Counted from the first letter of the stretch, positions 143-51,316 are shown. The stretch: DNA of 64,000 bases from a virus (IMGVR_UViG_3300035698_029580), one strand, 5' to 3'. Translations and numbers: made by a program. Notes: generated by a model from the letters alone, not told the origin.

Positions 143-724
143 ATGGAAGATTTTGAAATAATAGATGAACCATTGGTAACAGAAGATGGTTTTTTGAATG
201 AAGTTGCTTGTAAAAAATTATCCAGTTGGATAGACAATCTTGACCCTCCATATGAACGATTAAAAAATCGTCCAGAATGGTCTATAAAAAGAATAACAAG
301 TAAGAAAGATATTCTTTCTAATTTTGGAAAATGTGCGATTTTCATATCTCCCTATACTATTCCTTCTCATTTAGAAGAGGTAATTTGTTATCTTGATAAA
401 TGTTTGGAAAAAGATGTACCTTGGGATAGAATTGGGAAATTTGTGTTTACTGATTTAAGTTTGTGTGATATAAATAAATTGCTTTATGATATTTTATATG
501 AGAAAAATATATCTTATTTTGATGATTGGAATATTGCTAAAAAAGATTGGAGAAAAGATAAACTTGAAGGATTTTCAGAAGCCATTGACTCTGATGCTGA
601 TTATGACTTTATTGATTTAGACGCATTATTACATAATGTATGCTTAGAAATAAGAAGTGAAAGAAGAAGTAATGATGATTTTGACAAAAGATTTAATGAA
701 AAACATGGAAACGAAACTTTCTGA
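143..724 (+). CDS. hypothetical protein
   Basis: 193-aa ORF with upstream AGGA; no recognised motif. Confidence 0.6.
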   Translation: MEDFEIIDEPLVTEDGFLNEVACKKLSSWIDNLDPPYERLKNRPEWSIKRITSKKDILSNFGKCAIFISPYTIPSHLEEVICYLDKCLEKDVPWDRIGKFVFTDLSLCDINKLLYDILYEKNISYFDDWNIAKKDWRKDKLEGFSEAIDSDADYDFIDLDALLHNVCLEIRSERRSNDDFDKRFNEKHGNETF

Positions 725-6394: not shown

Positions 6395-7525
6395 ATGGAA
6401 AATATTACAGATCTATTAACATCGGTTAGTCAAGTCCATCCGGGAAGAACTTTAGATTTTGACTATATTTATGATGGGTTGCAAAAGGAGGAGGAGAATG
6501 GTTATGTCTCTTCAAATTCTCATCCTAAATATCCTCTGAAAATATATAAGTACACTTCCTCTACCTCTGGAGAAAAAAGGTGGAATATCTTCACTCTTAT
6601 CTCCAGAGGTATTGTTTTAGATGTGCAAAATAAAAAAGTAGTAGCTACTCCTTTCCCTAAATTTTTTAATTTGCAAGAAATGCCCGTTCCCAAAACATGC
6701 ATAACTTTTATGGCCACAGAGAAAATAGACGGGTCATTGGGAATTGCATTTAATTATTCAGGAGAATGGATAATTACAACTGCAGGAGCTTTTGAGACTC
6801 CTCAAGGAATATGGGCAACAACTTATCTAAATAGAATTAATCATAATTTAAATCCTAATAATACTTATTTGTTCGAGATAGTTTATTCTGAGAATAAGAT
6901 AATTGTTAAATATGATCATGAAGGACTTTATATTTTATCAGCATATAACAAAAATGGAAAAGAAGCAAAATTATATGAAATAGAAAAAATATCTTTAGAA
7001 AATAATTTTTTCCTTCCTAAAATATTTTATTTTAATAGTATTTCTGATGCTGTGAAAAATGCTAAAGGACTGCCTGTTAATGAAGAAGGATATGTAATTC
7101 GATATTCCAACGGTGTTAGGGTTAAAATAAAAGGAGAACAATATGTTAGTATGCATAATCTTATTTCCAGAATTACTCCCTTAGGTATCTGGAAAATGAT
7201 ATATACTGGAACAGATATGGGTGAAGTGAGAAAAGAAATACCAGAAGAAATAAAAGATGAATTTGATCATATTAATGAAATTCTTGTTTCTAATTATAAC
7301 TATATGTTGATGGAACTGGAAAATCTCTTTCAAGAAACAGTAAGTTTGTCTAATAAAGAACTTGCTTTTTATATGAGAGACAATAAACTTCATCCTGTTA
7401 ATAAATTATTATTCCATTATAGAAAAATTGGTCATAATTTACCCCTATATGGTACAAAAGTTGACAAAGAAATACTTAAGATGATAAAACCCATTAATAA
7501 TTATCTGGAAAGGTTATACATCTAG
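6395..7525 (+). CDS. T4 Rnl1 (RnlA)-like RNA ligase
   Basis: SRGIV, PFPKFFN, motif I EKIDGS, FEIV, EEGYV, VKIK nucleotidyltransferase motifs. Confidence 0.9.
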   Translation: MENITDLLTSVSQVHPGRTLDFDYIYDGLQKEEENGYVSSNSHPKYPLKIYKYTSSTSGEKRWNIFTLISRGIVLDVQNKKVVATPFPKFFNLQEMPVPKTCITFMATEKIDGSLGIAFNYSGEWIITTAGAFETPQGIWATTYLNRINHNLNPNNTYLFEIVYSENKIIVKYDHEGLYILSAYNKNGKEAKLYEIEKISLENNFFLPKIFYFNSISDAVKNAKGLPVNEEGYVIRYSNGVRVKIKGEQYVSMHNLISRITPLGIWKMIYTGTDMGEVRKEIPEEIKDEFDHINEILVSNYNYMLMELENLFQETVSLSNKELAFYMRDNKLHPVNKLLFHYRKIGHNLPLYGTKVDKEILKMIKPINNYLERLYI

Positions 7526-7871: not shown

Positions 7872-8519
7872 ATGAAAATTGTATTTGTCAGTGATTTGCA
7901 TGGGAATTTGATAGGTAATATTCCACCTTGTGACATTCTTTGTATTTGTGGGGATTTAAGTAAACATTTTTACCATATAGGAGAAACATCTAATTGGTTT
8001 AATTTGAAAGTTAAAAAATGGCTTAACAATATTCCAGCAGAAGAAGTTTGTATTATAGCTGGTAATCATGATGAAATATTTTATAATAAAAATTTGCTTG
8101 ATACAGATTTTAGATGGCATTATTTAGAAGATAGTAGTATAGAAATTAATGGACTAAAAATCTATGGTACTCCATGGACATCAATATTTTTAAATTGGTT
8201 TTTTATGAAGTCAGAAGACAATTTAAAACAGGTTTTTGATGCTATCCCCGAAGATACAGACATTCTAATGACTCATGGTCCTCCCTTGGGAATACTAGAT
8301 CAACCAATAGGAAGAAATTTAAAACATATAGGTTCCCTGGGTTTAAAAGAAACTATATTACGAAAAAATATTCCTCATACTGCCTTTGGGCATATACATG
8401 GTAGCGGTGGTAGGACTCTTGAAATCTTAAATGATGAAAAATATTTAAATTTTTATAATTGTTCCATATTGAATGAAAGATATAAAATAGTGAATAAACC
8501 AATTGTAAAGGAATTATGA
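7872..8519 (+). CDS. calcineurin-like metallophosphoesterase
   Basis: SDLHG, CGD, AGNHD, THGPP, FGHIH motifs. Confidence 0.92.
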   Translation: MKIVFVSDLHGNLIGNIPPCDILCICGDLSKHFYHIGETSNWFNLKVKKWLNNIPAEEVCIIAGNHDEIFYNKNLLDTDFRWHYLEDSSIEINGLKIYGTPWTSIFLNWFFMKSEDNLKQVFDAIPEDTDILMTHGPPLGILDQPIGRNLKHIGSLGLKETILRKNIPHTAFGHIHGSGGRTLEILNDEKYLNFYNCSILNERYKIVNKPIVKEL

Positions 8520-9127
8520 TGAACAACACTCCTCTTACAGATGAACAATCAATGCTTGTCGAAAAAAATATAGGTCTTATTTATAAGTATGTAAAAATAA
8601 AAATTCCAAATTGTTTAATGTCTAACTCAAATAGAATAGATGATATTATGAGTGATTTAAGATTGGCATTATGTAAATCTGTTAAAGGTTTCGATCCTTC
8701 TAAAGGATATAAATTTACCACTTATGCTTTTACGTCTTTTAGGAATGCTCATTGTGATTATATGAGAAAATTAACTAATAGGGAAAAAAAATTACCTATA
8801 ACAGATATTGATGATAAAATTATTATTGGGGAAAAAGGATTAGTAAATAGAATAGATTGGCTAAGGGTTACACATGTTATAAAACAGTTAGATATATCTG
8901 AGAGAAACAAAAACATAACAATACATTACTTGACAAATGAGTTTTCTCTCACCTCCACTGGTAAAAAATACAACTTAAGCAAAGAAAGAGTAAGGCAAAT
9001 TTCCAATAAAGTAATGGGTAAGTTCAAAGAATTTATGTTATTTAATGGACTTTTGTTAGAAGATTTATGTGCTCATACAAATATTTTTTGGGACGAATTA
9101 AAAGAAATAGAAAAGCAATTATCATAA
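8516..9127 (+). CDS. sigma-70 family RNA polymerase sigma factor
   Basis: LVEKNIGL, FDPSKGYKFTTYA (region 2), LSKERVRQI (region 4). Confidence 0.88.
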   Translation: MMNNTPLTDEQSMLVEKNIGLIYKYVKIKIPNCLMSNSNRIDDIMSDLRLALCKSVKGFDPSKGYKFTTYAFTSFRNAHCDYMRKLTNREKKLPITDIDDKIIIGEKGLVNRIDWLRVTHVIKQLDISERNKNITIHYLTNEFSLTSTGKKYNLSKERVRQISNKVMGKFKEFMLFNGLLLEDLCAHTNIFWDELKEIEKQLS

Positions 9128-12860: not shown

Positions 12861-13097
12861 ATGGATAGAAACCTCCACACTTATTGATAAGTGTGTACTT
12901 TCTTATCCAACCTACTACATATAGTAATTTTCTTATGTTTTCCCCAAAAATATACCATATTTAGTAATTTTTCTATTATTTTCCCCAAAATATAGTAATT
13001 CTTTAATTTTCCAGCATTATATAATTTAATTGATATGTGCAGAGAAAGATGGTAAAATTCACCATTAAAAAAAATTTTTAATATAAGGAATTTAATT

Positions 13098-13610
13098 ATG
13101 TTGAAACATGTTAGAAAAGAAGTAGAAAAACTAGTCAAAGAGTTAAAACTTAATTGTACTGTTGAAGAATTTAAGTTTAAGGCTGATTGGCTCTATCTTT
13201 CTATTCATAAAGTATTACCAGAAGACTTTATGAGGGAATTCAAAGATAGAGTGTACTGGGATCATGTTCCTACTTTCCAAAGACATGTTTCTCAAAAATT
13301 TAAAGATGAATTTGATGATAGAGTGGCTTGCTGGGAAGATTGTGAAAATTGTGAAGATCGTTACGATTGTGATGACTGTGATAATGTTCCTAATTTTCCA
13401 AAAGAATTTTTGGAAGAAATTAAAAAACGTAGATATGGAGGTACTAAACATGAACATCATTCTGTTTTTCTTCCTATGTTCAAAATGAGTAAATCCCCTG
13501 ATTCTCATAACGATTATAAGAAAAAAAATGATGACAAAGAAAATTCAAAAATTAGGGAAGTATATGATTTCGTAATTAGGATTTTTTGTTATTTTCTAAA
13601 AAAGTTGTAA
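13098..13610 (+). CDS. Trp-repeat family protein with Cys/Asp-rich insert
   Basis: LNCTVEEF leader, repeats, and CWEDCENCEDRYDCDDCD segment. Confidence 0.7.
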   Translation: MLKHVRKEVEKLVKELKLNCTVEEFKFKADWLYLSIHKVLPEDFMREFKDRVYWDHVPTFQRHVSQKFKDEFDDRVACWEDCENCEDRYDCDDCDNVPNFPKEFLEEIKKRRYGGTKHEHHSVFLPMFKMSKSPDSHNDYKKKNDDKENSKIREVYDFVIRIFCYFLKKL

Positions 13611-17370: not shown

Positions 17371-18702
17371 ATGAGAACAAACGTAAAAGCTAAGGATGGC
17401 AAGGAATTTGTAACTTATGAGGGTGGACGTGCAGTCAGAACCTCAGATGAGAAGTTATTGAGACGTACCTTAATGACTTGTTTTCTGGGTGAAAATACTT
17501 TTTATGAAGATGGAGAGTCTATTAAGGACAGAATTCGTGAACTGGTAGCAAAGGTTGATCCTATAGTTGTAGCATCAATGGCTATTGAAGCTCGTGAACA
17601 AATGAACTTACGTCATGCTCCACTATGGATAGTGAGGGAGATGGCTCGTAATAGATATCCTGGCACAGCAGATACTATTGAGAGAGTAATTCAACGAGCA
17701 GATGAATTAAGTGAATTATTGGCTATGTATTGGGAAGACGGTAAGTGTGCATTGTCTAAGCAACTAAAGCTAGGATTGGCTCGTGCATTTACTAAGTTTA
17801 ACGAGTATCAATTGGCTAAGTATAATAGGAATAACATCGTTAAATTACGAGATGTCTTATTTATGGTACACGCAAAGCCTAAGGACAAAGAACAGGCTGT
17901 TATTTGGAAAAGATTAGTAGATGGTAAATTAAAAACTCCTGATACTTGGGAAGTTGATTTATCTTTGGGAGAAGGTAAGACTACTGATGAAGATAAGAAG
18001 CTTAAGTGGGCAAGGTTGTTAAAAGAGAATAAATTAGGTGGATTAGCATTATTGCGTAATTTACGTAATATGAAAGACGCTGGTGTTAATGAAGATTTGG
18101 TATTTGCTGCATTAAATAACAGTAATTTCAGCAGAGTATTACCATTTAGATTTATTGCTGCGGAAAAATATGTTCCACATTGGTCTGGACAGTTAGAACA
18201 AGTTATGTTCAAAAGTTTAAAAGACGTTAAAAAACTATCAGGTAAAACAGCTGTTTTAGTTGATATAAGTGGTAGCATGAGTTGGTCTAATTTGTCTGAG
18301 AAATCTGATATGTTGAGAAAGGATGGAGCTATTGGATTAGCTATATGTGCTCGTGAACTGTGTGAAGATTGTCGTATATATGCTTTTCACACAGAGGTAT
18401 TTGATGTTCCTGCCCGACGAGGATTTGCCATAAGAGATGCAATTAATAAATTTGGAGCAGGTGGTACTTATTTAGGTGCAGCAGTCAAGCATGTTAATGA
18501 TACTTATGAATATGACCGTATTATTGTTGTAACTGATGAGCAGGCACACGATGTGGTTGGTCCTCCTTTGAAAGACAGTAATGCATATATGATTAACGTA
18601 GCATCGTATAAAAATAGTGTTGGTTATGGAAAATGGGCAAAGATCACAGGTTTTTCTGAATCTATTTTTAAGTACATAAGTGCTTACGAGGAGGAGATTT
18701 AG
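17371..18702 (+). CDS. Ro60/Rsr TROVE-domain RNA-binding protein with C-terminal vWA domain
   Basis: ENTFYE, NLRHAP, RADEL, FNEYQLAKY, PDTWE, ALLRNLRN, VLPFRF; MIDAS DISGSM; GGT; IIVVTDEQ. Confidence 0.93.
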   Translation: MRTNVKAKDGKEFVTYEGGRAVRTSDEKLLRRTLMTCFLGENTFYEDGESIKDRIRELVAKVDPIVVASMAIEAREQMNLRHAPLWIVREMARNRYPGTADTIERVIQRADELSELLAMYWEDGKCALSKQLKLGLARAFTKFNEYQLAKYNRNNIVKLRDVLFMVHAKPKDKEQAVIWKRLVDGKLKTPDTWEVDLSLGEGKTTDEDKKLKWARLLKENKLGGLALLRNLRNMKDAGVNEDLVFAALNNSNFSRVLPFRFIAAEKYVPHWSGQLEQVMFKSLKDVKKLSGKTAVLVDISGSMSWSNLSEKSDMLRKDGAIGLAICARELCEDCRIYAFHTEVFDVPARRGFAIRDAINKFGAGGTYLGAAVKHVNDTYEYDRIIVVTDEQAHDVVGPPLKDSNAYMINVASYKNSVGYGKWAKITGFSESIFKYISAYEEEI

Positions 18703-18711
18703 AGCAAAAAT

Positions 18712-18773
18712 AGGTGGTGAAGTCAAGGGTTACTTCTAAGTTTATGAAAAAACCCCTTGACAACTGTTCCCCT
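18712..18773 (+). ncRNA. Y-RNA-like repeat 1
   Basis: AGGTGGTGAA-GTCAAGGG-TTACTTC...GAA...CCCTTGAC-AACTGTTCCCCT; starts 10 nt after the TROVE stop codon. Confidence 0.75.
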
Positions 18774-18791
18774 TTTTTGTATAATTGGAAT

Positions 18792-18860
18792 TGGTGAGTG
18801 GTGAAGATAAGAGTTACTTCCATTTAAGAAACCATGCTTTTATCGTTTGTTCCCTTACTA
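18792..18860 (+). ncRNA. Y-RNA-like repeat 2
   Basis: GAGTGGTGAA-GATAAGAG-TTACTTC...CTTTTATC-GTTTGTTCCCTT. Confidence 0.75.
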
Positions 18861-18917
18861 TTTTAAGAAATATTTTCTACTATTTTATTTGTGGGAGCCG
18901 TAAAATAGTAAAAAAAT

Positions 18918-18981
18918 TAGGTGGTGAAAATAAGAGTTACTTCTTGCTATTGAAAATGAACTCTTATTGTTTGTTCCCCTA
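18918..18981 (+). ncRNA. Y-RNA-like repeat 3
   Basis: AATAAGAGTT/AACTCTTATT stem inside the conserved GTGGTGAA and TTGTTCCCCT ends. Confidence 0.75.
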
Positions 18982-19010
18982 TATTTTTATTTGAATAAAG
19001 GTTATTAAAA

Positions 19011-19418
19011 ATGAGTATAGATAATAGTTATGGAAAAGGATTTCAGAAATCAGTTATTGAACAGTTGGCTGAACAAAAGGCTCACCCTGAAAAAGTTGCA
19101 AAGTGTCCTTGTTGTAATCATTTTGTATCAGTACCTTCGTATCAATATGATTGTACACTTGTTGAGTATGCATGTGGAACAACGAAGAGTTACACAGGAG
19201 AAATTAAACAGAGTTCAACTTGTATAAAAAATGTTCGAAATAACGACGCTAAGGCTTTTCAAAAGAAAATAGATATTTTGAGTAGTGCAATGCCTACTAC
19301 TATAGGACATCCAGGAGGAAAGTTAGTTAAAGTTGTTGGTCATTATGAAAATGGATCAAAGCAGACTATTGATGGAGCAGTTGTCGAAAAGGCTTGTAAA
19401 GAGGTACATAAAAATTAG
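19011..19418 (+). CDS. hypothetical Cys-rich protein embedded in the Y-RNA-like array
   Basis: 135-aa ORF with AAGG RBS and CPCC motif. Confidence 0.6.
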   Translation: MSIDNSYGKGFQKSVIEQLAEQKAHPEKVAKCPCCNHFVSVPSYQYDCTLVEYACGTTKSYTGEIKQSSTCIKNVRNNDAKAFQKKIDILSSAMPTTIGHPGGKLVKVVGHYENGSKQTIDGAVVEKACKEVHKN

Positions 19419-19543
19419 GTGGTGTAGATAAAAGTTACTTCTACTTCAAATAGAGAAATTTTGGGTTCGAGTCCCAAAACCAATTAAGTTTGGTCTCGTC
19501 TAACGGTAGGACGCTAAAACAACTTTTGTCGATTGTTCCCCTA
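19416..19543 (+). ncRNA. YrlA-like RNA with permuted tRNA module (repeat 4)
   Basis: conserved ends enclose anticodon arm (loop CTTCAAA), T arm TTGGG-TTCGAGT-CCCAA, closed acceptor ACCAA/TTGGT and D arm GTCT-AACGGTA-GGAC. Confidence 0.85.
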
Positions 19544-19579
19544 TATTTTTAAAAAATAATGCATTGATACTGAGTTAGT

Positions 19580-19663
19580 TAAGAGTGGTGAAAATAAAAG
19601 ATACTTCATCAATGAACCTTGTTCGTTAGAAACAAGATCTCTTTTATTGATTGTTCCCTCTTA
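19580..19663 (+). ncRNA. Y-RNA-like repeat 5
   Basis: same conserved ends; insert hairpin CTTGTT-CGTTAGA-AACAAG. Confidence 0.75.
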
Positions 19664-19686
19664 TTTTTTAAAAATTTAGATTAAAA

Positions 19687-19815
19687 CATACAAAAGTGTA
19701 GGTGTGAAAAATCGCGGACACACTGGGTGCCTCTCACTGGTGGACTGGGCCAAGTGGCTGAAAAGTCGAAGAAAACCATCATCAGCCGGAGTAGCGACCG
19801 GCACACTTTTGTATG
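19687..19815 (+). ncRNA. unassigned structured RNA candidate
   Basis: 13-bp terminal stem CATACAAAAGTGT/ACACTTTTGTATG enclosing a GC-rich multi-stem core. Confidence 0.55.
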
Positions 19816-19882
19816 ATTTTGATAATTTTCCAGTAAAAAATAATTTAGTTATTACATAGTTCAAATTTAGAAAGGTATTAAA

Positions 19883-20494
19883 ATGAATGAGAAGACACAA
19901 ACAATTGATAATGAAGAAGTTATGAAATTATCAGTTATAAAAGAAGTAGAATATCTAATTAAAGAATTAGGTATGACTCATTGTGGTGTATATGATTTCG
20001 AGGACAAAGTTGATTGGACTGGCATTTCTTCTTCTAAAACCTTATCTGAAGATTTTATAAGAGAATTCAAAAATAAAGTCTCTTGGTATAATATTTCTCA
20101 ATATCAAACTTTATCGGAAGATTTTATTAGAGAATTTAAAGATAAAATTCATTGGTATTTGATTTCTCGATATCAAACTTTATCAGAAGAATTTATAAGA
20201 GAATTTAAAAATAAGGTTGATTGGAATTGTATTTCTCAAAATCAAGAATTATCCGAAGATTTTATAAGAGAATTTAAAGATAAAGTTATTTTGATAACTA
20301 TTTCTCAATATCAAAAATTATCTGAAGAATTTATTAGAGAATTTAAAAATAAAATTTGGTGGTCAGATATTATTCATTATAAAAAATTATCCGAAATATT
20401 TATGTATGAATTGCTAGAACAGTTAGGGTCTGATTTTATAGATGATGCAGGTTTCCGAGATCGTATTAAATCAGAGTTAAAAAATGTGGGATAA
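19883..20494 (+). CDS. Trp-repeat family protein
   Basis: five or six 24-aa repeats; tandem paralogue of 20542-21102. Confidence 0.85.
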   Translation: MNEKTQTIDNEEVMKLSVIKEVEYLIKELGMTHCGVYDFEDKVDWTGISSSKTLSEDFIREFKNKVSWYNISQYQTLSEDFIREFKDKIHWYLISRYQTLSEEFIREFKNKVDWNCISQNQELSEDFIREFKDKVILITISQYQKLSEEFIREFKNKIWWSDIIHYKKLSEIFMYELLEQLGSDFIDDAGFRDRIKSELKNVG

Positions 20495-20541
20495 TTTAAT
20501 TTTCCAGCATAAAGATGATTTTGTTATTATAAGGTATTAAA

Positions 20542-21102
20542 ATGGATGAGAAGACACAAACAATTGATAGTGAGAAAGTTATGAAATTATCAGTTATAAA
20601 AGAAGTAGAATGTCTAATTAAAAAATTAAAGTTAAATTGTACTGTAGAAGAATTCCCAGATAAAGTTGATTGGATGTATATTTCTGAACATCAAAAATTA
20701 TCCGAAGATTTTATAAGAGAATTTAAAGATAAAGATACTTGGATAAATATTTTTATTTGGATAAATATTTCTCAACATCAAAAATTATCTGAAGAATTTA
20801 TTAGAGAATTTCAAGATTATGTTAGATGGAATTCTATTTCTGGACATCAAAAATTATCAGAAGAATTTATTAGAGAATTTCAAAATAGAGTTAGTTGGTG
20901 TCTTATTTCTGAATGTCAAAATTTATCAGAAGAATTTTTAAAAGAATTTAAAAATAAAATTTGGTGGTCAGATATTATCTGTCATAGAAAATTATCTTTA
21001 ATGTCTATTTATGAATTGCTAGAAGAGTTAGGGTATAGTTCTGTAGATGATGCAGGTTTCCGGGATCGTATTAAATCGAAGTTAAAAAATGAGAAAATTT
21101 AA
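20542..21102 (+). CDS. Trp-repeat family protein
   Basis: shares near-identical N- and C-termini with 19883-20494. Confidence 0.85.
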   Translation: MDEKTQTIDSEKVMKLSVIKEVECLIKKLKLNCTVEEFPDKVDWMYISEHQKLSEDFIREFKDKDTWINIFIWINISQHQKLSEEFIREFQDYVRWNSISGHQKLSEEFIREFQNRVSWCLISECQNLSEEFLKEFKNKIWWSDIICHRKLSLMSIYELLEELGYSSVDDAGFRDRIKSKLKNEKI

Positions 21103-21344
21103 AAATTTTCCAGCATTATAATTTTTGTTGGATATAAATAGAGGATTTTTAAAAAATATGGCTGAAAACTGGAAATTAAATGAAATTGTTAAATTATCTA
21201 AAGAGGAATCTCTGTCATTGGCAGAAACTCCCTTGAAAGCCTGCCGAGAGATATTTAAAGAATTGGCTAGATGGAGAAGTGAATCTTTAGATTCCAAGAT
21301 AAGAATTAATTGATAATTTTCCAGCATTATAATTTTTGTTGGAT

Positions 21345-21696
21345 AAAAATAGAGGAGTAACCGGGGCATTTGACAACCGAATAATAGTTTGGGCAATGAA
21401 TTATTTGGCTCACCAGACAACAAAACCACAAAACTTACAAAAATGGAGATAAAACCCATGAGTAAAAACAAAGAAACAGTGAATGTGCTATTAGAAAAAT
21501 CAAGTAAATGCGAAAAATCAGAAGACGCTATGAGGTTTTCACAAGCGGCATTGAATTGTTCACAGGCAATTCAGATATTATTTTTTGTAGAAAAAGACGA
21601 GAAAGAAGCGAAGTAGTTAGATACTAATACTTGGTGAGCCAAATGATTCATTACCCTGGTATTAGCTCTTTTTCGTAACTGAAAAAAAATAGAGGA
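21345..21696 (+). mobile_element. small inserted element: ORF enclosed by 25-bp inverted repeats, flanked by 12-bp direct repeats
   Basis: AAAAATAGAGGA at 21345-21356 and 21685-21696; inverted repeats at 21391-21415 and 21632-21656. Confidence 0.5.
21458..21616 (+). CDS. 52-aa hypothetical protein (MSKNKETV...AMRFSQAALNCSQA...)
   Basis: GGAG RBS before ATG 21458; lies inside the inverted repeats. Confidence 0.65.
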   Translation: MSKNKETVNVLLEKSSKCEKSEDAMRFSQAALNCSQAIQILFFVEKDEKEAK

Positions 21697-21724
21697 TTTT
21701 GAAAAATAGGTTAGAAATAGAAGA

Positions 21725-21798
21725 AGAGAGTGGTGTAAATAAGAGTTACTTCAATAATTTGGTATCGAAAAAAGCTTTTATTGATTGTTCCCTCTTTT
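21725..21798 (+). ncRNA. Y-RNA-like repeat 6
   Basis: GAGTGGTGTA-AATAAGAG-TTACTTC...CTTTTATT-GATTGTTCCCTC. Confidence 0.75.
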
Positions 21799-21814
21799 AT
21801 TTTTGAGAAAAATT

Positions 21815-21913
21815 ATGACTAAAAAACAACAAATAGATAGTTTACCCATGTCCAGGATTGCCTGGTCATTTGCAGGTAGACATAATGCCTGCGAAAAACC
21901 AGGAGGTCCGTGA
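21815..21913 (+). CDS. putative 32-aa leader peptide MTKKQQIDSLPMSRIAWSFAGRHNACEKPGGP
   Basis: open frame whose TGA abuts the antiterminator arm; no strong RBS. Confidence 0.55.
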   Translation: MTKKQQIDSLPMSRIAWSFAGRHNACEKPGGP

Positions 21914-21941
21914 ACTAGCCGTTAAATAAAAAGGATTTTAC

Positions 21942-21971
21942 AAGACGGCTAGAAAAAGCCGTCTTTTTTTT
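21942..21971 (+). terminator. intrinsic terminator with a competing antiterminator
   Basis: AAGACGGCT/AGCCGTCTT plus T-run; CTAGCCGT (21915-21922) can pair with ACGGCTAG (21945-21952). Confidence 0.8.
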
Positions 21972-22000
21972 ATGCAAAAATTTTTAAGGAAATAAAAAAA

Positions 22001-22186
22001 ATGGAAGTAAAAAGAAAAACAAGTGATGCCGTTAAAATCTTATATCACCGATATATTGATGGAAATCCAGAGAGAGAGAAAGCTGTGCAGACAGAACGTA
22101 TCAATGCTGATGTTGAATGCATGGTATACGAATTTTATGAATTAGCTAAGAAATATGGATTTTTAGCTCCTAAGGAGTATAAATAG
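22001..22186 (+). CDS. short protein resembling the N-terminus of XRE-type antitoxins
   Basis: TSDAVKILYHRYIDGNPER...ERINADV; no HTH follows; recognised from memory only. Confidence 0.4.
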   Translation: MEVKRKTSDAVKILYHRYIDGNPEREKAVQTERINADVECMVYEFYELAKKYGFLAPKEYK

Positions 22187-29512: not shown

Positions 29513-29830
29513 ATGAAAAACTCAGTCAGAAAAGAAGTAGAACAATTAATTAATAAATTAGACTTAAATTGTTCAGTTGAAGAATTTCCTAATAAAGTTT
29601 GTTGGAATTATATTTCTATAAATCATAAATTATCAGAAGAATTTATAAAAGAATTTAAAAATAAAGTTTGGTGGTTTTTAATTTCAGAATTTCAAACTTT
29701 ATCAGAAGATTTCATTAGGGAATTTAAAGATAAAGTTGATTGGTATAATATTTCTCAATATCAAACTTTATCAGAAGAATTTATAAAGGAGAACCAATAT
29801 GGATTATACCCCTATCAACGAGAATTTTGA
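29513..29830 (+). CDS. Trp-repeat family protein
   Basis: LNCSVEEF leader plus three repeats. Confidence 0.8.
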   Translation: MKNSVRKEVEQLINKLDLNCSVEEFPNKVCWNYISINHKLSEEFIKEFKNKVWWFLISEFQTLSEDFIREFKDKVDWYNISQYQTLSEEFIKENQYGLYPYQREF

Positions 29831-50668: not shown

Positions 50669-51316
50669 ATGTACTTGGATGTGTGTTTCAAATTACAGGC
50701 TGATTTTATTGCACTAAATCATAATTATCAATTATGGGAGGCTCTTGCTGAAAAGTTTGCTTTTCTCAGATATGATGAAGGTAAAACAATTGGTATTGAC
50801 TCTATCAATGGAAAAGCAATAAAATCAGGGAATGGCAGTGGAAATGGAGTAGATACTTTGGAAATTACTTCTCGTTCTATCTTGAGAATAAGGACTCCTA
50901 TTCAACATGTTAATCCTTTTCTTGAAATGTGTGATACTCAATTCCAAATTGATGATGATTTGCTTGAGATTTATAATCCTCACGTATATCCACTTAATCC
51001 TTCCTGGGCACTATGGGGTCGTATGATAGCTTATAGAGGCATAATGGACCCAGAAGGTGTATTAGAGGCAGTGAGAATGGAACTAAATAATATGGGGATT
51101 TCTTCAGATGTTCAGTTGAAGATACCTACTTATGAAGATTCAGGTGCTCCTAAATTGAGCTTTCTGATGATACAAGATAAGAAGATAGTAGGTTTTCCCA
51201 TGTATATTTATGAATTAAATAATGAAGATTCTATGAAGGTTCAAACTCATGGAGTCGGTGATTTTCATCACTTAGGTTGCGGAATATTTTTGCCAGAAGT
51301 AAAAAAAATTAGTTAG
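50669..51316 (+). CDS. cas6: orphan Cas6 (type I-MYXAN/Cmx6-like)
   Basis: DVCF...NHNYQL, GIDSING, SILRIR, C-terminal Gly-rich loop GVGDFHHLGCGIFLP. Confidence 0.78.
   Translation: MYLDVCFKLQADFIALNHNYQLWEALAEKFAFLRYDEGKTIGIDSINGKAIKSGNGSGNGVDTLEITSRSILRIRTPIQHVNPFLEMCDTQFQIDDDLLEIYNPHVYPLNPSWALWGRMIAYRGIMDPEGVLEAVRMELNNMGISSDVQLKIPTYEDSGAPKLSFLMIQDKKIVGFPMYIYELNNEDSMKVQTHGVGDFHHLGCGIFLPEVKKIS

What the first reader, a model, noticed from the sequence alone, without database searches (positions are those of the whole stretch)
17371..21798. Phage Ro60/TROVE gene followed by an array of six Y-RNA-like cassettes with constant ends and variable cargo
Seen: six elements (18712, 18792, 18918, 19416, 19580, 21725) share 5' RGTGGTG(A/T)A, an internal TACTTC and 3' TGTTCCC(C/T). 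The 8-10-bp stem between these blocks changes sequence while keeping pairing (GTCAAGGG/CCCTTGAC, GATAAGAG/CTTTTATC, AATAAGAGTT/AACTCTTATT, GATAAAAGTT/AACTTTTGTC). The apical insert ranges from a short loop to a whole tRNA module. Known: bacterial Ro60 (Rsr) genes sit next to Y RNAs that bind through a terminal helix, usually one or two per locus. Inference: a modular phage RNP in which one Ro60 scaffold loads interchangeable RNAs displaying different loops, perhaps decoys for host anticodon nucleases or tethers for RNA decay/repair enzymes. The ends differ from the classic GGUCCGA/UUGACC Ro site, so this may be a distinct Y RNA class.
Basis: partly seen in the sequence, partly recalled or inferred. 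Interest (0 to 1): 0.92.

Follow-up and report, generated by a model that had tools for sequence, protein, structure and literature searches.

The report
Phage Ro60 gene with six Y RNAs
A giant phage carries a gene for the ring-shaped RNA-binding protein Ro60 followed by six small RNA genes that share one conserved 'handle' (one also holds a sealed, rearranged tRNA); this is a large but otherwise typical example of the Ro60/Y-RNA particles already described in bacteria and phages.

Summary
A TROVE+vWA Ro60 gene (17371-18702) is followed on the same strand by exactly six RNAs. They share a terminal helix with a bulged U, GGUG(A/U)A, a covarying 8-10-bp stem, UACUUC and UGUUCCC.

A covariance model built from the six finds the same RNA, always on the Ro60 strand, beside Ro60 genes elsewhere. 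In about 86 phage loci it gave 218 hits, at a median 175 nt from the gene, with 0-6 copies per locus (mostly 2-3). In 54 bacterial Rsr loci it gave 153 hits.

The long members match Rfam YrlA (RF02553) below threshold and align along their whole length with the published mycobacteriophage ET08 YrlA. The "new ends" are the known bacterial GNCGAA(N)G motif with U in place of C. The UA of UUAC corresponds to the conserved YUAY.

So this is not a distinct Y RNA class. It is a YrlA-type Ro60/Y-RNA locus with one tRNA-like RNA and five short RNAs. The idea of interchangeable RNAs on one Ro60 is already published. The decoy idea is untested.

One possibly new point concerns the hairpin after UACUUC. 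In many family members it has an anticodon-loop signature (C-U-NNN-A-A).

This scan has noted similar phage arrays on other DNA. Expression and binding are unproven.

The parts
17371..18702 (+). Ro60/Rsr gene (443 aa; TROVE HEAT-repeat ring plus vWA domain with a DxSxS MIDAS motif)
   Evidence: Pfam TROVE 6e-15 and vWA_Ro60. PHROG 850 RNA-binding protein, 5e-45. Full-length match to Thermus phage phiLo Ro60 structures 9KOP/9L5Y, E 1.5e-33. More than 8000 homologues at E<1e-20. DISGSMS is visible in the translation and invariant in the alignment.
18708..18780 (+). Y1, short Y RNA (model hit including about 4-nt flanks). It starts 6 nt after the Ro60 stop codon. Its stem 2 (GUCAAGGG/CCCUUGAC) also carries the -35 box of the next copy's promoter.
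   Evidence: R1 81.6 bits, E 3e-16; fold; promoter scan.
18757..18785 (+). Perfect sigma-70 consensus promoter TTGACA-17-TATAAT. The predicted start lies at about 18792, the 5' end of Y2.
   Evidence: 12 of 12 consensus matches.
18792..18862 (+). Y2, short Y RNA. Apical hairpin UUC-CAUUUAA-GAA.
   Evidence: R1 78.5 bits; fold.
18915..18986 (+). Y3, short Y RNA
   Evidence: R1 86.5 bits; fold z -3.7.
19413..19548 (+). Y4, long YrlA-type Y RNA. The order is handle, UUAC, a 5-bp/7-nt hairpin (loop CUUCAAA), a 5-nt linker, T arm, acceptor-like hairpin closed by UAAG, U8, D arm, CUAAAA, handle. The interior can be numbered as a tRNA opened between positions 26 and 27 with its acceptor ends joined.
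   Evidence: R1 72.1 bits; fold; aligns end to end with Rfam-YrlA-positive phage copies and with ET08 YrlA. ARAGORN miscalls 19413-19486 as tRNA-SeC. Rfam tRNA scores only 22 bits against a 29-bit threshold.
19579..19666 (+). Y5, short Y RNA with two small apical hairpins (AUAC in place of UUAC)
   Evidence: R1 72.3 bits; fold.
21724..21800 (+). Y6, short Y RNA. It lies 2 kb downstream of the others and just before the 27-gene tRNA array.
   Evidence: R1 77.8 bits; fold; tRNA list.
19011..21102 (+). Interspersed lineage-specific ORFs: a 135-aa Cys-rich ORF at 19011-19418 and two repeat proteins of PHROG 3532 at 19883-20494 and 20542-21102. They lie inside the array but are not part of the conserved module.
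   Evidence: No homologues in any of about 86 other Ro60 loci; Pfam and PHROG results.

Best explanation
This is a phage-borne Ro60 (Rsr)/Y-RNA ribonucleoprotein locus of the bacterial YrlA/YrlB type. The Ro60 ring most likely binds each of the six RNAs through their shared handle. The handle is the terminal helix with a bulged U, plus the asymmetric internal loop formed by GGUG(A/U)A on the 5' strand and UGUU on the 3' strand. The variable distal module points away from the protein. In Y4 that module is a sealed tRNA look-alike; in the other five it is a short UACUUC-initiated hairpin followed by an A-rich strand.

By analogy with characterised systems, the distal module either gates Ro60's cavity or tethers Ro60 to a partner enzyme. 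The best precedent for a partner is host PNPase; tRNA-handling or RNA-repair enzymes are alternatives. Six paralogues would then give one protein several partner specificities during infection.

Shown here: the genes, the conserved and covarying structure, strict linkage to Ro60 across phages and bacteria, and homology to YrlA. Inferred: transcription and processing into discrete RNAs, binding to this Ro60, and every downstream function. Y1 is probably cut from the Ro60 transcript. Y2 has its own consensus promoter.
For: The protein is a Ro60: TROVE plus vWA, and a full-length match to phiLo Ro60, which binds two phage Y-RNA-like RNAs and forms a ternary complex with host PNPase (PMC12135203).

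The RNA structure is supported by covariation. Within the window 10 of 16 pairs change on both sides. Across 94 distinct phage copies 16 of 16 pairs do so, with 95% of cells paired against about 48% when the partner is slid.

Linkage to Ro60 is strict. In 7 whole phage records totalling 1.65 Mb, the model hits cluster at Ro60, with one exception 30 kb away in RsoM2USA. Across about 86 phage loci there are 218 hits; all lie on the Ro60 strand and 208 lie within 1 kb. Across 54 bacterial Rsr loci there are 153 hits, all on the Rsr strand.

Homology to YrlA is supported. RF02553 hits the long copies in Xanthomonas phage 10KY502B (55.9 and 46.7 bits) and in CcrColossus (42.3 bits), at the same coordinates as my model's hits. 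CcrColossus was already listed as carrying Y-RNA-like RNAs. Y4 aligns end to end with the published ET08 YrlA. The motif correspondence is GNCGAAN0-1G and YUAY.

The context fits an RNA-conflict role: an Rnl1-type RNA ligase, a phosphoesterase and 27 tRNA genes lie in the same window.
Against: There is no expression or binding data; no RNA-seq holder was available. Rfam YrlA does not hit any window copy even at E<=10. All relatives score below the 69-bit gathering threshold, but so does the published ET08 YrlA at 37 bits. The strict GNCGAA motif is not present in the window: U replaces C, and Y4 and Y6 also have U in place of the first A. My model finds nothing in mycobacteriophage ET08 or in Brevundimonas phage Gurke, so the family link rests on architecture and transitive matches. 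The partner enzyme is unknown, and no PNPase or RtcB gene is in the window.
Confidence: 0.85

Rival explanations
1. The RNAs are decoys or sensors. The Ro60-held RNAs display tRNA and anticodon-arm look-alikes that absorb or report host tRNA-targeting weapons (anticodon nucleases) or tRNA-modifying enzymes, and so protect the phage's own 27 tRNAs. It concerns what the distal module does and is compatible with the main explanation.
For: Y4's interior is a complete tRNA body with a 5-bp/7-nt hairpin of loop CUUCAAA. Across the family, the hairpin after UACUUC has a 7-nt loop in 22 of about 55 long copies and 29 of about 100 short copies. Those loops carry an anticodon-loop signature: position 32 is C in 37 of 51, position 33 is U in 39 of 51, position 37 is A or G in 49 of 51, and position 38 is A in 39 of 51. 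The middle triplet varies: GUU, GCU, UGU, GAU, GUG, UCA and others. The window also carries counter-defence-type genes: a Tad5 homologue, a PARP-like gene, an RNA ligase and a tRNA array.
Against: Only Y4 fits the signature among the window's six copies. Y2 fits partly (A at position 33). Y1, Y3, Y5 and Y6 have loops of 9, 8, 4 and 14 nt. The published view treats this hairpin as a class-II-like variable arm. The same RNAs are abundant in bacterial chromosomes, where a phage counter-defence role does not apply. There is no functional data.
Confidence: 0.12
2. The elements are cis-acting parts of the Ro60 and tRNA operon transcripts, such as processing signals, stabilisers, terminators or autoregulatory Ro60 binding sites. 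They would not be stable, trans-acting small RNAs.
For: In most loci the copies sit head to tail, 2-10 nt apart, directly upstream of Ro60 (for example L015, six copies ending 26 nt before the gene). They must therefore be co-transcribed with it. In the window each copy is followed by a T-rich run.
Against: Co-transcription followed by processing into stable Rsr-bound RNAs is exactly what was shown for M. smegmatis YrlA/YrlB and D. radiodurans Yrn1/Yrn2. The T-runs are not conserved in GC-richer relatives, and terminators upstream of Ro60 would block its expression. Y2 has its own consensus promoter. Y6 lies 3 kb from the gene.
Confidence: 0.08
3. The elements are decaying tRNA genes or a mobile intergenic repeat with no function of their own.
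For: ARAGORN and genome annotators call parts of the long copies tRNAs: tRNA-SeC in the window, tRNA-Thr in 10KY502B and tRNA-Gln in CcrColossus. The locus adjoins a tRNA array.
Against: The handle is nearly invariant at many positions: the bulged U in 93 of 94 copies, UAC-UC in 94 of 94 and UGUU in 92-94 of 94. Both helices show compensatory changes across phages and bacteria whose Ro60 proteins are only 50-60% identical. There are no copies elsewhere in the window. Y4 is not a copy of any tRNA in the window.
Confidence: 0.02

Closest known systems
YrlA-type bacterial and phage Y RNAs (Chen et al. 2014, PMC4201824; Rfam RF02553; crystal structure described in bioRxiv 10.1101/312249)
   Same: They are encoded within 4 kb of Ro60 on the same strand, and the 5' and 3' ends pair into the Ro60-binding stem. 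The 5' motif is of the G-N-C/U-G-A-A-G type, and the conserved UA lies at the start of the variable-arm hairpin. The order is T arm, closed acceptor-like hairpin, D arm. Chen et al. reported these RNAs in 22 phages; PMC12135203 names CcrColossus among phages with previously identified Y-RNA-like RNAs, and my model finds five copies there.
   Different: The window copies have U where the motif has C. The 3' strand (UGUUCC) and the bulged U are as conserved as the 5' strand, whereas the literature says only the 5' strand is recognisable in YrlA. Y4 scores nothing against RF02553. Y4's variable-arm hairpin has full anticodon-arm geometry, whereas S. Typhimurium YrlA is said to lack an anticodon loop.
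Second, shorter Y RNAs: S. Typhimurium and M. smegmatis YrlB, D. radiodurans Yrn2
   Same: They share the Ro60-binding motif and are encoded beside YrlA. They are long hairpins without the full tRNA-like core and were proposed to widen the range of Ro60 partners.
   Different: Here there are five of them. They are clearly homologous to the long form (same handle, same UACUUC), so they look like YrlA without the T-AS-D core. No curated family exists for them. Chen et al. found YrlB homologues only in Salmonella serovars by BLAST.
Thermus phage phiLo Ro60 with Yrl1 and Yrl2 (PMC12135203; PDB 9KOP, 9L5Y)
   Same: A phage Ro60 that matches the window protein over its full length (E 1.5e-33). Y-RNA-like genes lie next to the gene. 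RNA binding and a ternary complex with host PNPase were shown in vitro.
   Different: phiLo has two RNAs, upstream of the gene and defined by a CGAA motif. The window has six, downstream of the gene. I did not test whether the phiLo RNAs fit my model.
Metazoan Y RNAs and D. radiodurans Yrn1 (the Ro60-Y RNA-PNPase 'RYPER' complex)
   Same: They have the same modular logic: a terminal helix with a single bulged pyrimidine binds Ro60 and a distal module binds effectors. There are several paralogues per genome (2-4 in vertebrates).
   Different: The helix sequence differs (GGUCCGA/UUGACC there). No Rfam Y_RNA match was found. Metazoan Y RNAs have no tRNA-like core.

Membership tests
Ro60/Rsr protein (TROVE + vWA) | TROVE HEAT-repeat domain | tested here: met
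   PF05731 at 6e-15, 55.8 bits against a 23-bit cut-off.
Ro60/Rsr protein (TROVE + vWA) | C-terminal vWA domain with a MIDAS motif (DxSxS) | tested here: met
   PF25045 vWA_Ro60 matches weakly (19.5 bits, below its 27.7-bit cut-off). D298-x-S300-G-S302 is invariant in 21 homologues.
Ro60/Rsr protein (TROVE + vWA) | Full-length similarity to a solved Ro60 ring | tested here: met
   phmmer against 9KOP/9L5Y: residues 15-440 align with 23-483, E 1.5e-33.
YrlA-type Y RNA (Chen 2014; RF02553) | Encoded within about 4 kb of Ro60 on the same strand | tested here: met
   The six copies lie 6 nt to 3.0 kb downstream on the + strand. Family-wide, all 218 phage-locus hits are on the Ro60 strand.
YrlA-type Y RNA (Chen 2014; RF02553) | The 5' and 3' ends pair into a long stem | tested here: met
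   Two helices with compensatory changes.
YrlA-type Y RNA (Chen 2014; RF02553) | GNCGAAN0-1G motif near the 5' end | tested here: inconclusive
   The window has GGUGAAG in Y1 and Y2, GGUGAAA in Y3 and Y5, GGUGUAG in Y4 and GGUGUAA in Y6. This is the motif with C changed to U, plus A changed to U in two copies. The same alignment column is C in 31 and U in 63 of 94 family members. The Microcystis phage copy reads GGCGAAG.
YrlA-type Y RNA (Chen 2014; RF02553) | Conserved YUAY at the start of the variable-arm region | tested here: met
   UUAC in five copies and AUAC in Y5. U-A-C is invariant family-wide.
YrlA-type Y RNA (Chen 2014; RF02553) | tRNA-like core in the order T arm, closed acceptor-like stem, D arm | tested here: met
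   Met by Y4 only: UUGGG-UUCGAGU-CCCAA, then ACCAA/UUGGU, then GUCU-AACGGUA-GGAC. The five short copies lack this core.
YrlA-type Y RNA (Chen 2014; RF02553) | Rfam RF02553 score at or above the 69-bit gathering threshold | tested here: not met
   No RF02553 match in 18600-22100 even at E<=10. Relatives found by my model score 25-56 bits, and the published ET08 YrlA itself scores only 37 bits. The threshold therefore excludes known phage members too.
YrlA-type Y RNA (Chen 2014; RF02553) | Bound by Rsr/Ro60 in vivo | not testable with these tools
   Needs co-immunoprecipitation or EMSA.
Metazoan/Deinococcus-type Y RNA (RF00019-like helix GGUCCGA/UUGACC) | Conserved helix sequence with a bulged C | tested here: not met
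   No Rfam Y_RNA hit. The sequence differs, although a single bulged pyrimidine on the 5' strand is shared.
tRNA (for Y4) | Cloverleaf with free acceptor ends; Rfam tRNA at or above 29 bits | tested here: not met
   RF00005 scores 22 bits. The acceptor ends are joined by UAAG and the molecule is opened at positions 26/27. The ARAGORN tRNA-SeC call spans handle plus hairpin plus T arm and is an artefact.

The most novel reading that the evidence does not exclude
In this widespread Rsr clade the hairpin that follows the invariant UACUUC is a maintained anticodon-arm mimic rather than a class-II-like variable arm. Its 7-nt loop reads C-U-NNN-A-A with a freely varying triplet. The arrays would then give one Ro60 a panel of different 'anticodons' to display, as whole sealed tRNAs or as bare anticodon hairpins. 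Such a panel could serve as decoys, sensors or guides for enzymes that read anticodon loops (anticodon nucleases, modification enzymes, repair ligases).
Probability: 0.12. Interest if true: 0.7.

Novelty: new member of a known kind. Interest (0 to 1): 0.4.

Why it matters
The locus adds a clear, easily modelled example of a phage Ro60/Y-RNA system. The survey behind it shows three family-level points. Tandem arrays of 2-6 Y RNAs are the rule in this Rsr clade, in phages and in bacteria. Most array members are short forms that have no curated family. Rfam's YrlA threshold misses phage members. Several public phage records annotate the 5' part of long copies as tRNA genes, so a handle-based model would correct those annotations. 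If the anticodon-loop signature reflects function, it would give a concrete, testable handle on what bacterial Y RNA effector modules recognise. That question is still open.

Tried and rejected
Tools and searches that gave nothing:
- The search for related loci with the single protein found nothing. An alignment query was needed.
- No whole genome is held for the window.
- No RNA holder was listed for the stretch. Only DNA contigs from salt-lake metagenomes hold it.
- Rfam at gathering and at E<=10 gave no Y RNA or YrlA hit in the window.
- Model R1 found nothing in mycobacteriophage ET08 or in Brevundimonas phage Gurke. The ET08 YrlA had to be located by eye.

Ideas tested and dropped:
- Pairing between GAAG of the handle and CUUC of UACUUC. 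Rejected because Y4 (GUAG) and Y6 (GUAA) change the first block without any change in the second.
- Y4's tRNA body as a recent copy of one of the phage's tRNAs. No similarity beyond the T loop.
- Neighbouring ORFs as conserved partners. None recurs in about 86 other Ro60 loci.
- The T-runs after each copy as terminators. They are not conserved in relatives.

Side checks:
- The GC-rich RNA at 19687-19815 has no Rfam match, no phage-database match and no copy in related loci.
- No CRISPR array lies near the Cas6 homologue.

Full report
OBSERVATION. The region was read directly. An ORF at 17371-18702 encodes a 443-aa protein with a Pfam TROVE domain (6e-15) and a weak Ro60-type vWA match. It belongs to PHROG 850 'RNA-binding protein'. 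It matches the solved Ro60 of Thermus phage phiLo over residues 15-440 (E 1.5e-33).

Six elements follow on the same strand. As model hits with about 4-nt flanks they lie at 18708-18780, 18792-18862, 18915-18986, 19413-19548, 19579-19666 and 21724-21800.

Each element folds the same way. A terminal helix of 6-8 bp is interrupted by one bulged U. Next comes an asymmetric internal loop (5' UGAA or UGUA; 3' about 7 nt ending in UGUU). Then comes an 8-10-bp second helix and a distal module that begins with UACUUC.

Within the six copies, 10 of 16 base pairs change on both sides and 95% of cells are paired; no shuffle reaches this. A full-model scan of 15-24 kb finds exactly six copies.

WHAT IT IS. 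I built a covariance model (R1) from the six copies. It recovers the same RNA next to Ro60 genes in very different phages:
- Xanthomonas phage 10KY502B: 5 copies.
- Caulobacter phages CcrPW (4 copies) and CcrColossus (5 copies).
- Microcystis phage Mvi-JY20: 2 copies.
- a crAss-like Bacteroides phage: 2 copies.
- Ralstonia phage RsoM2USA: 3 copies.

When whole phage records were scanned (1.65 Mb), the hits cluster at the Ro60 gene, with one exception 30 kb away.

In 80 IMG/VR contigs that encode a relative of this Ro60 (534 such contigs exist), R1 gives 195 hits at E<=0.01, every one on the Ro60 strand. I pooled these with the named phages and the window, which gives 218 hits. Of these, 187 lie upstream and 31 downstream of the gene. 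The median distance is 175 nt and 208 lie within 1 kb. Copies per locus are 0 (6 loci), 1 (9), 2 (33), 3 (26), 4 (8), 5 (3) and 6 (3).

The same holds in bacterial chromosomes. In 54 Rsr loci, mostly Acidobacteriota and some on Mb-scale contigs, there are 153 hits, all on the Rsr strand. Five copies often fall within the 3 kb fetched.

On 94 distinct phage copies, all 16 modelled pairs show compensatory changes, and 95% of cells pair against about 48% when the partner is slid. The caveat is that this alignment was fitted to the model.

The consensus handle reads: helix, bulged U (93 of 94 copies), G-G-Y-G-(A/U)-A-G, helix 2, G-(U/A)-U-A-C-U-U-C, then the distal module, helix 2', G-y-y-U-G-U-U-C-C, helix. 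Lengths are bimodal: about 62-80 nt, and about 130-150 nt with a T loop.

RELATION TO KNOWN Y RNAs. Chen et al. 2014 (PMC4201824) described YrlA RNAs beside Ro60 in 254 bacteria and 22 phages. The features they list are:
- location within 4 kb of Ro60, on the same strand;
- a 5' GNCGAAN0-1G motif thought to contact Rsr;
- a conserved YUAY that opens a 'V' stem-loop;
- then a T arm, a closed acceptor-like stem and a D arm.

[quoted passage not shown] They proposed that the extra RNAs let Ro60 reach more partners.

The window's elements fit this description point by point. GGUGAAG is the motif with U in place of C. A third of family members have C at that position, and the Microcystis copy reads GGCGAAG. 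UUAC is YUAY. Y4 has the arms in the published order.

Rfam's YrlA model (RF02553) does not hit the AT-rich window copies. It does hit the long copies that R1 found in 10KY502B (55.9 and 46.7 bits) and in CcrColossus (42.3, 30.5 and 29.9 bits), all below the 69-bit threshold. The published mycobacteriophage ET08 YrlA itself scores only 37 bits.

I located the ET08 RNAs by eye. A long YrlA and a short RNA with GCCGAAGG and UUAU lie in tandem upstream of its Ro60. Y4 aligns with the ET08 YrlA, and with the Rfam-positive copies, along its whole length, including the CUAAAA segment after the D arm.

I therefore read the six RNAs as one YrlA-type and five short (YrlB-like) Y RNAs. They are not a separate class.

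HOW IT PROBABLY WORKS. Shown: the genes, the conserved structure, the linkage to Ro60 and the homology to YrlA. Inferred from characterised systems: Ro60 binds the handle, and the distal module gates the ring or tethers it to an effector.

Precedents for the effector are PNPase in D. radiodurans and S. Typhimurium, and host PNPase with phiLo Ro60 and Yrl1/2 in vitro, where the complex slowed PNPase.

On transcription, Y1 begins 6 nt after the Ro60 stop codon, so it is probably cut from that transcript. Y2 has a perfect TTGACA-17-TATAAT promoter. Its -35 box lies inside Y1's second helix, which explains why Y1's stem sequence differs from the others.

In most other loci the copies are packed 2-10 nt apart in front of Ro60. 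This implies a processed polycistronic precursor, as was shown in M. smegmatis.

The neighbouring ORFs are not conserved between loci, so the conserved unit is Ro60 plus the RNAs. The window also holds an Rnl1-type RNA ligase, a phosphoesterase, 27 tRNA genes and several counter-defence-type genes. This fits a role in RNA conflict or RNA quality control but does not prove one.

A POSSIBLY NEW DETAIL. The interior of Y4 can be numbered as a complete class I tRNA that is opened between positions 26 and 27 and has its acceptor ends joined by UAAG:
- anticodon-like arm UUCUA-CUUCAAA-UAGAG;
- 5-nt variable loop;
- T arm;
- positions 66-72 and 1-7;
- U8;
- D arm;
- G26.

Across the family, the hairpin after UACUUC has a 7-nt loop in 22 of about 55 long copies and 29 of about 100 short copies. 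Those loops carry an anticodon-loop signature (C32, U33, purine 37, A38) with a variable middle triplet.

The literature treats this hairpin as a class-II-like variable arm and states that S. Typhimurium YrlA lacks an anticodon loop.

My hairpin caller was crude, the copies are phylogenetically related, and in this window only Y4 fits fully. I therefore report this as a lead.

VERDICT. It is a new, copy-rich member of the known Ro60/YrlA-type Y RNA system. The claim of a distinct class is not supported. Earlier follow-ups in this scan reported similar handle-plus-cargo arrays beside Ro60-like genes on other phage DNA, so this is a recurring pattern rather than a one-off.

Noticed in passing
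window 18757-18785: A perfect sigma-70 consensus promoter (TTGACA, 17 nt, TATAAT). Its -35 hexamer is part of the 3' strand of Y1's second helix, and its predicted start coincides with the 5' end of Y2. One RNA gene's stem therefore doubles as the next gene's promoter.
   Followed up: partly
L001 3831-3898 (OQ622092.1 tRNA-Thr); L088 3164-3231 (JX100810.1 tRNA-Gln); window 19413-19486 (ARAGORN tRNA-SeC): Public phage records and ARAGORN annotate the 5' part of long Y RNAs (handle, anticodon-like hairpin and T arm) as tRNA genes. These calls overlap model R1 hits and look like misannotations.
   Followed up: partly
Family-wide: alignments A2, A4, A5 (for example L075:7357-7494, L057:1602-1739, L025:5743-5815): The hairpin after the invariant UACUUC often has a 7-nt loop reading C-U-NNN-A-A with varied triplets (GUU, GCU, UGU, GAU, GUG, UCA and others), in both long and short copies. 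This is an anticodon-loop signature, and I did not find it described in the YrlA papers I read.
   Followed up: partly
window 19687-19815: A GC-rich 129-nt element in AT-rich surroundings, lying between Y5 and the repeat-protein genes. It is closed by a 13-bp stem (MFE -45 kcal/mol, z -2.9). It lacks the Y handle and has no match in Rfam, in the phage database or in related loci.
   Followed up: partly
window 6395-7525 and 7872-8519: A T4 Rnl1-type RNA ligase (Pfam 1.5e-11) and a calcineurin-like phosphoesterase, which together look like a tRNA-repair pair. They lie 10 kb upstream of the Ro60 locus and are followed by a sigma-70-family factor at 8516-9127.
   Followed up: no
window 50669-51316: A Cas6 homologue (Pfam Cas6 1.6e-40) in a phage region with no CRISPR-like repeat array within 46-56 kb.
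   Followed up: partly
window 143-724; 40350-41639: A homologue of the Thoeris inhibitor Tad5 (2.8e-20) and a PARP catalytic plus regulatory domain protein (2.5e-28). The window looks like a counter-defence and accessory region of a giant phage.
   Followed up: no
window 19883-20494, 20542-21102, also 2216-2823, 13095-13343, 29513-29797: A multi-copy family of repeat proteins (PHROG 3532), similar to Bacillus phage G gp563 and to the 'tryptophan repeat gene family' of Bacillus and Listeria jumbo phages. Two copies are inserted inside the Y RNA array.
   Followed up: no
L096-L175 (genome contigs): Relatives of this Ro60 at 54-58% identity are abundant in Acidobacteriota (Terriglobia) chromosomes. 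There, five or more R1-type RNAs lie within 3 kb upstream of rsr. These are larger arrays than the two RNAs per species shown experimentally in bacteria.
   Followed up: partly
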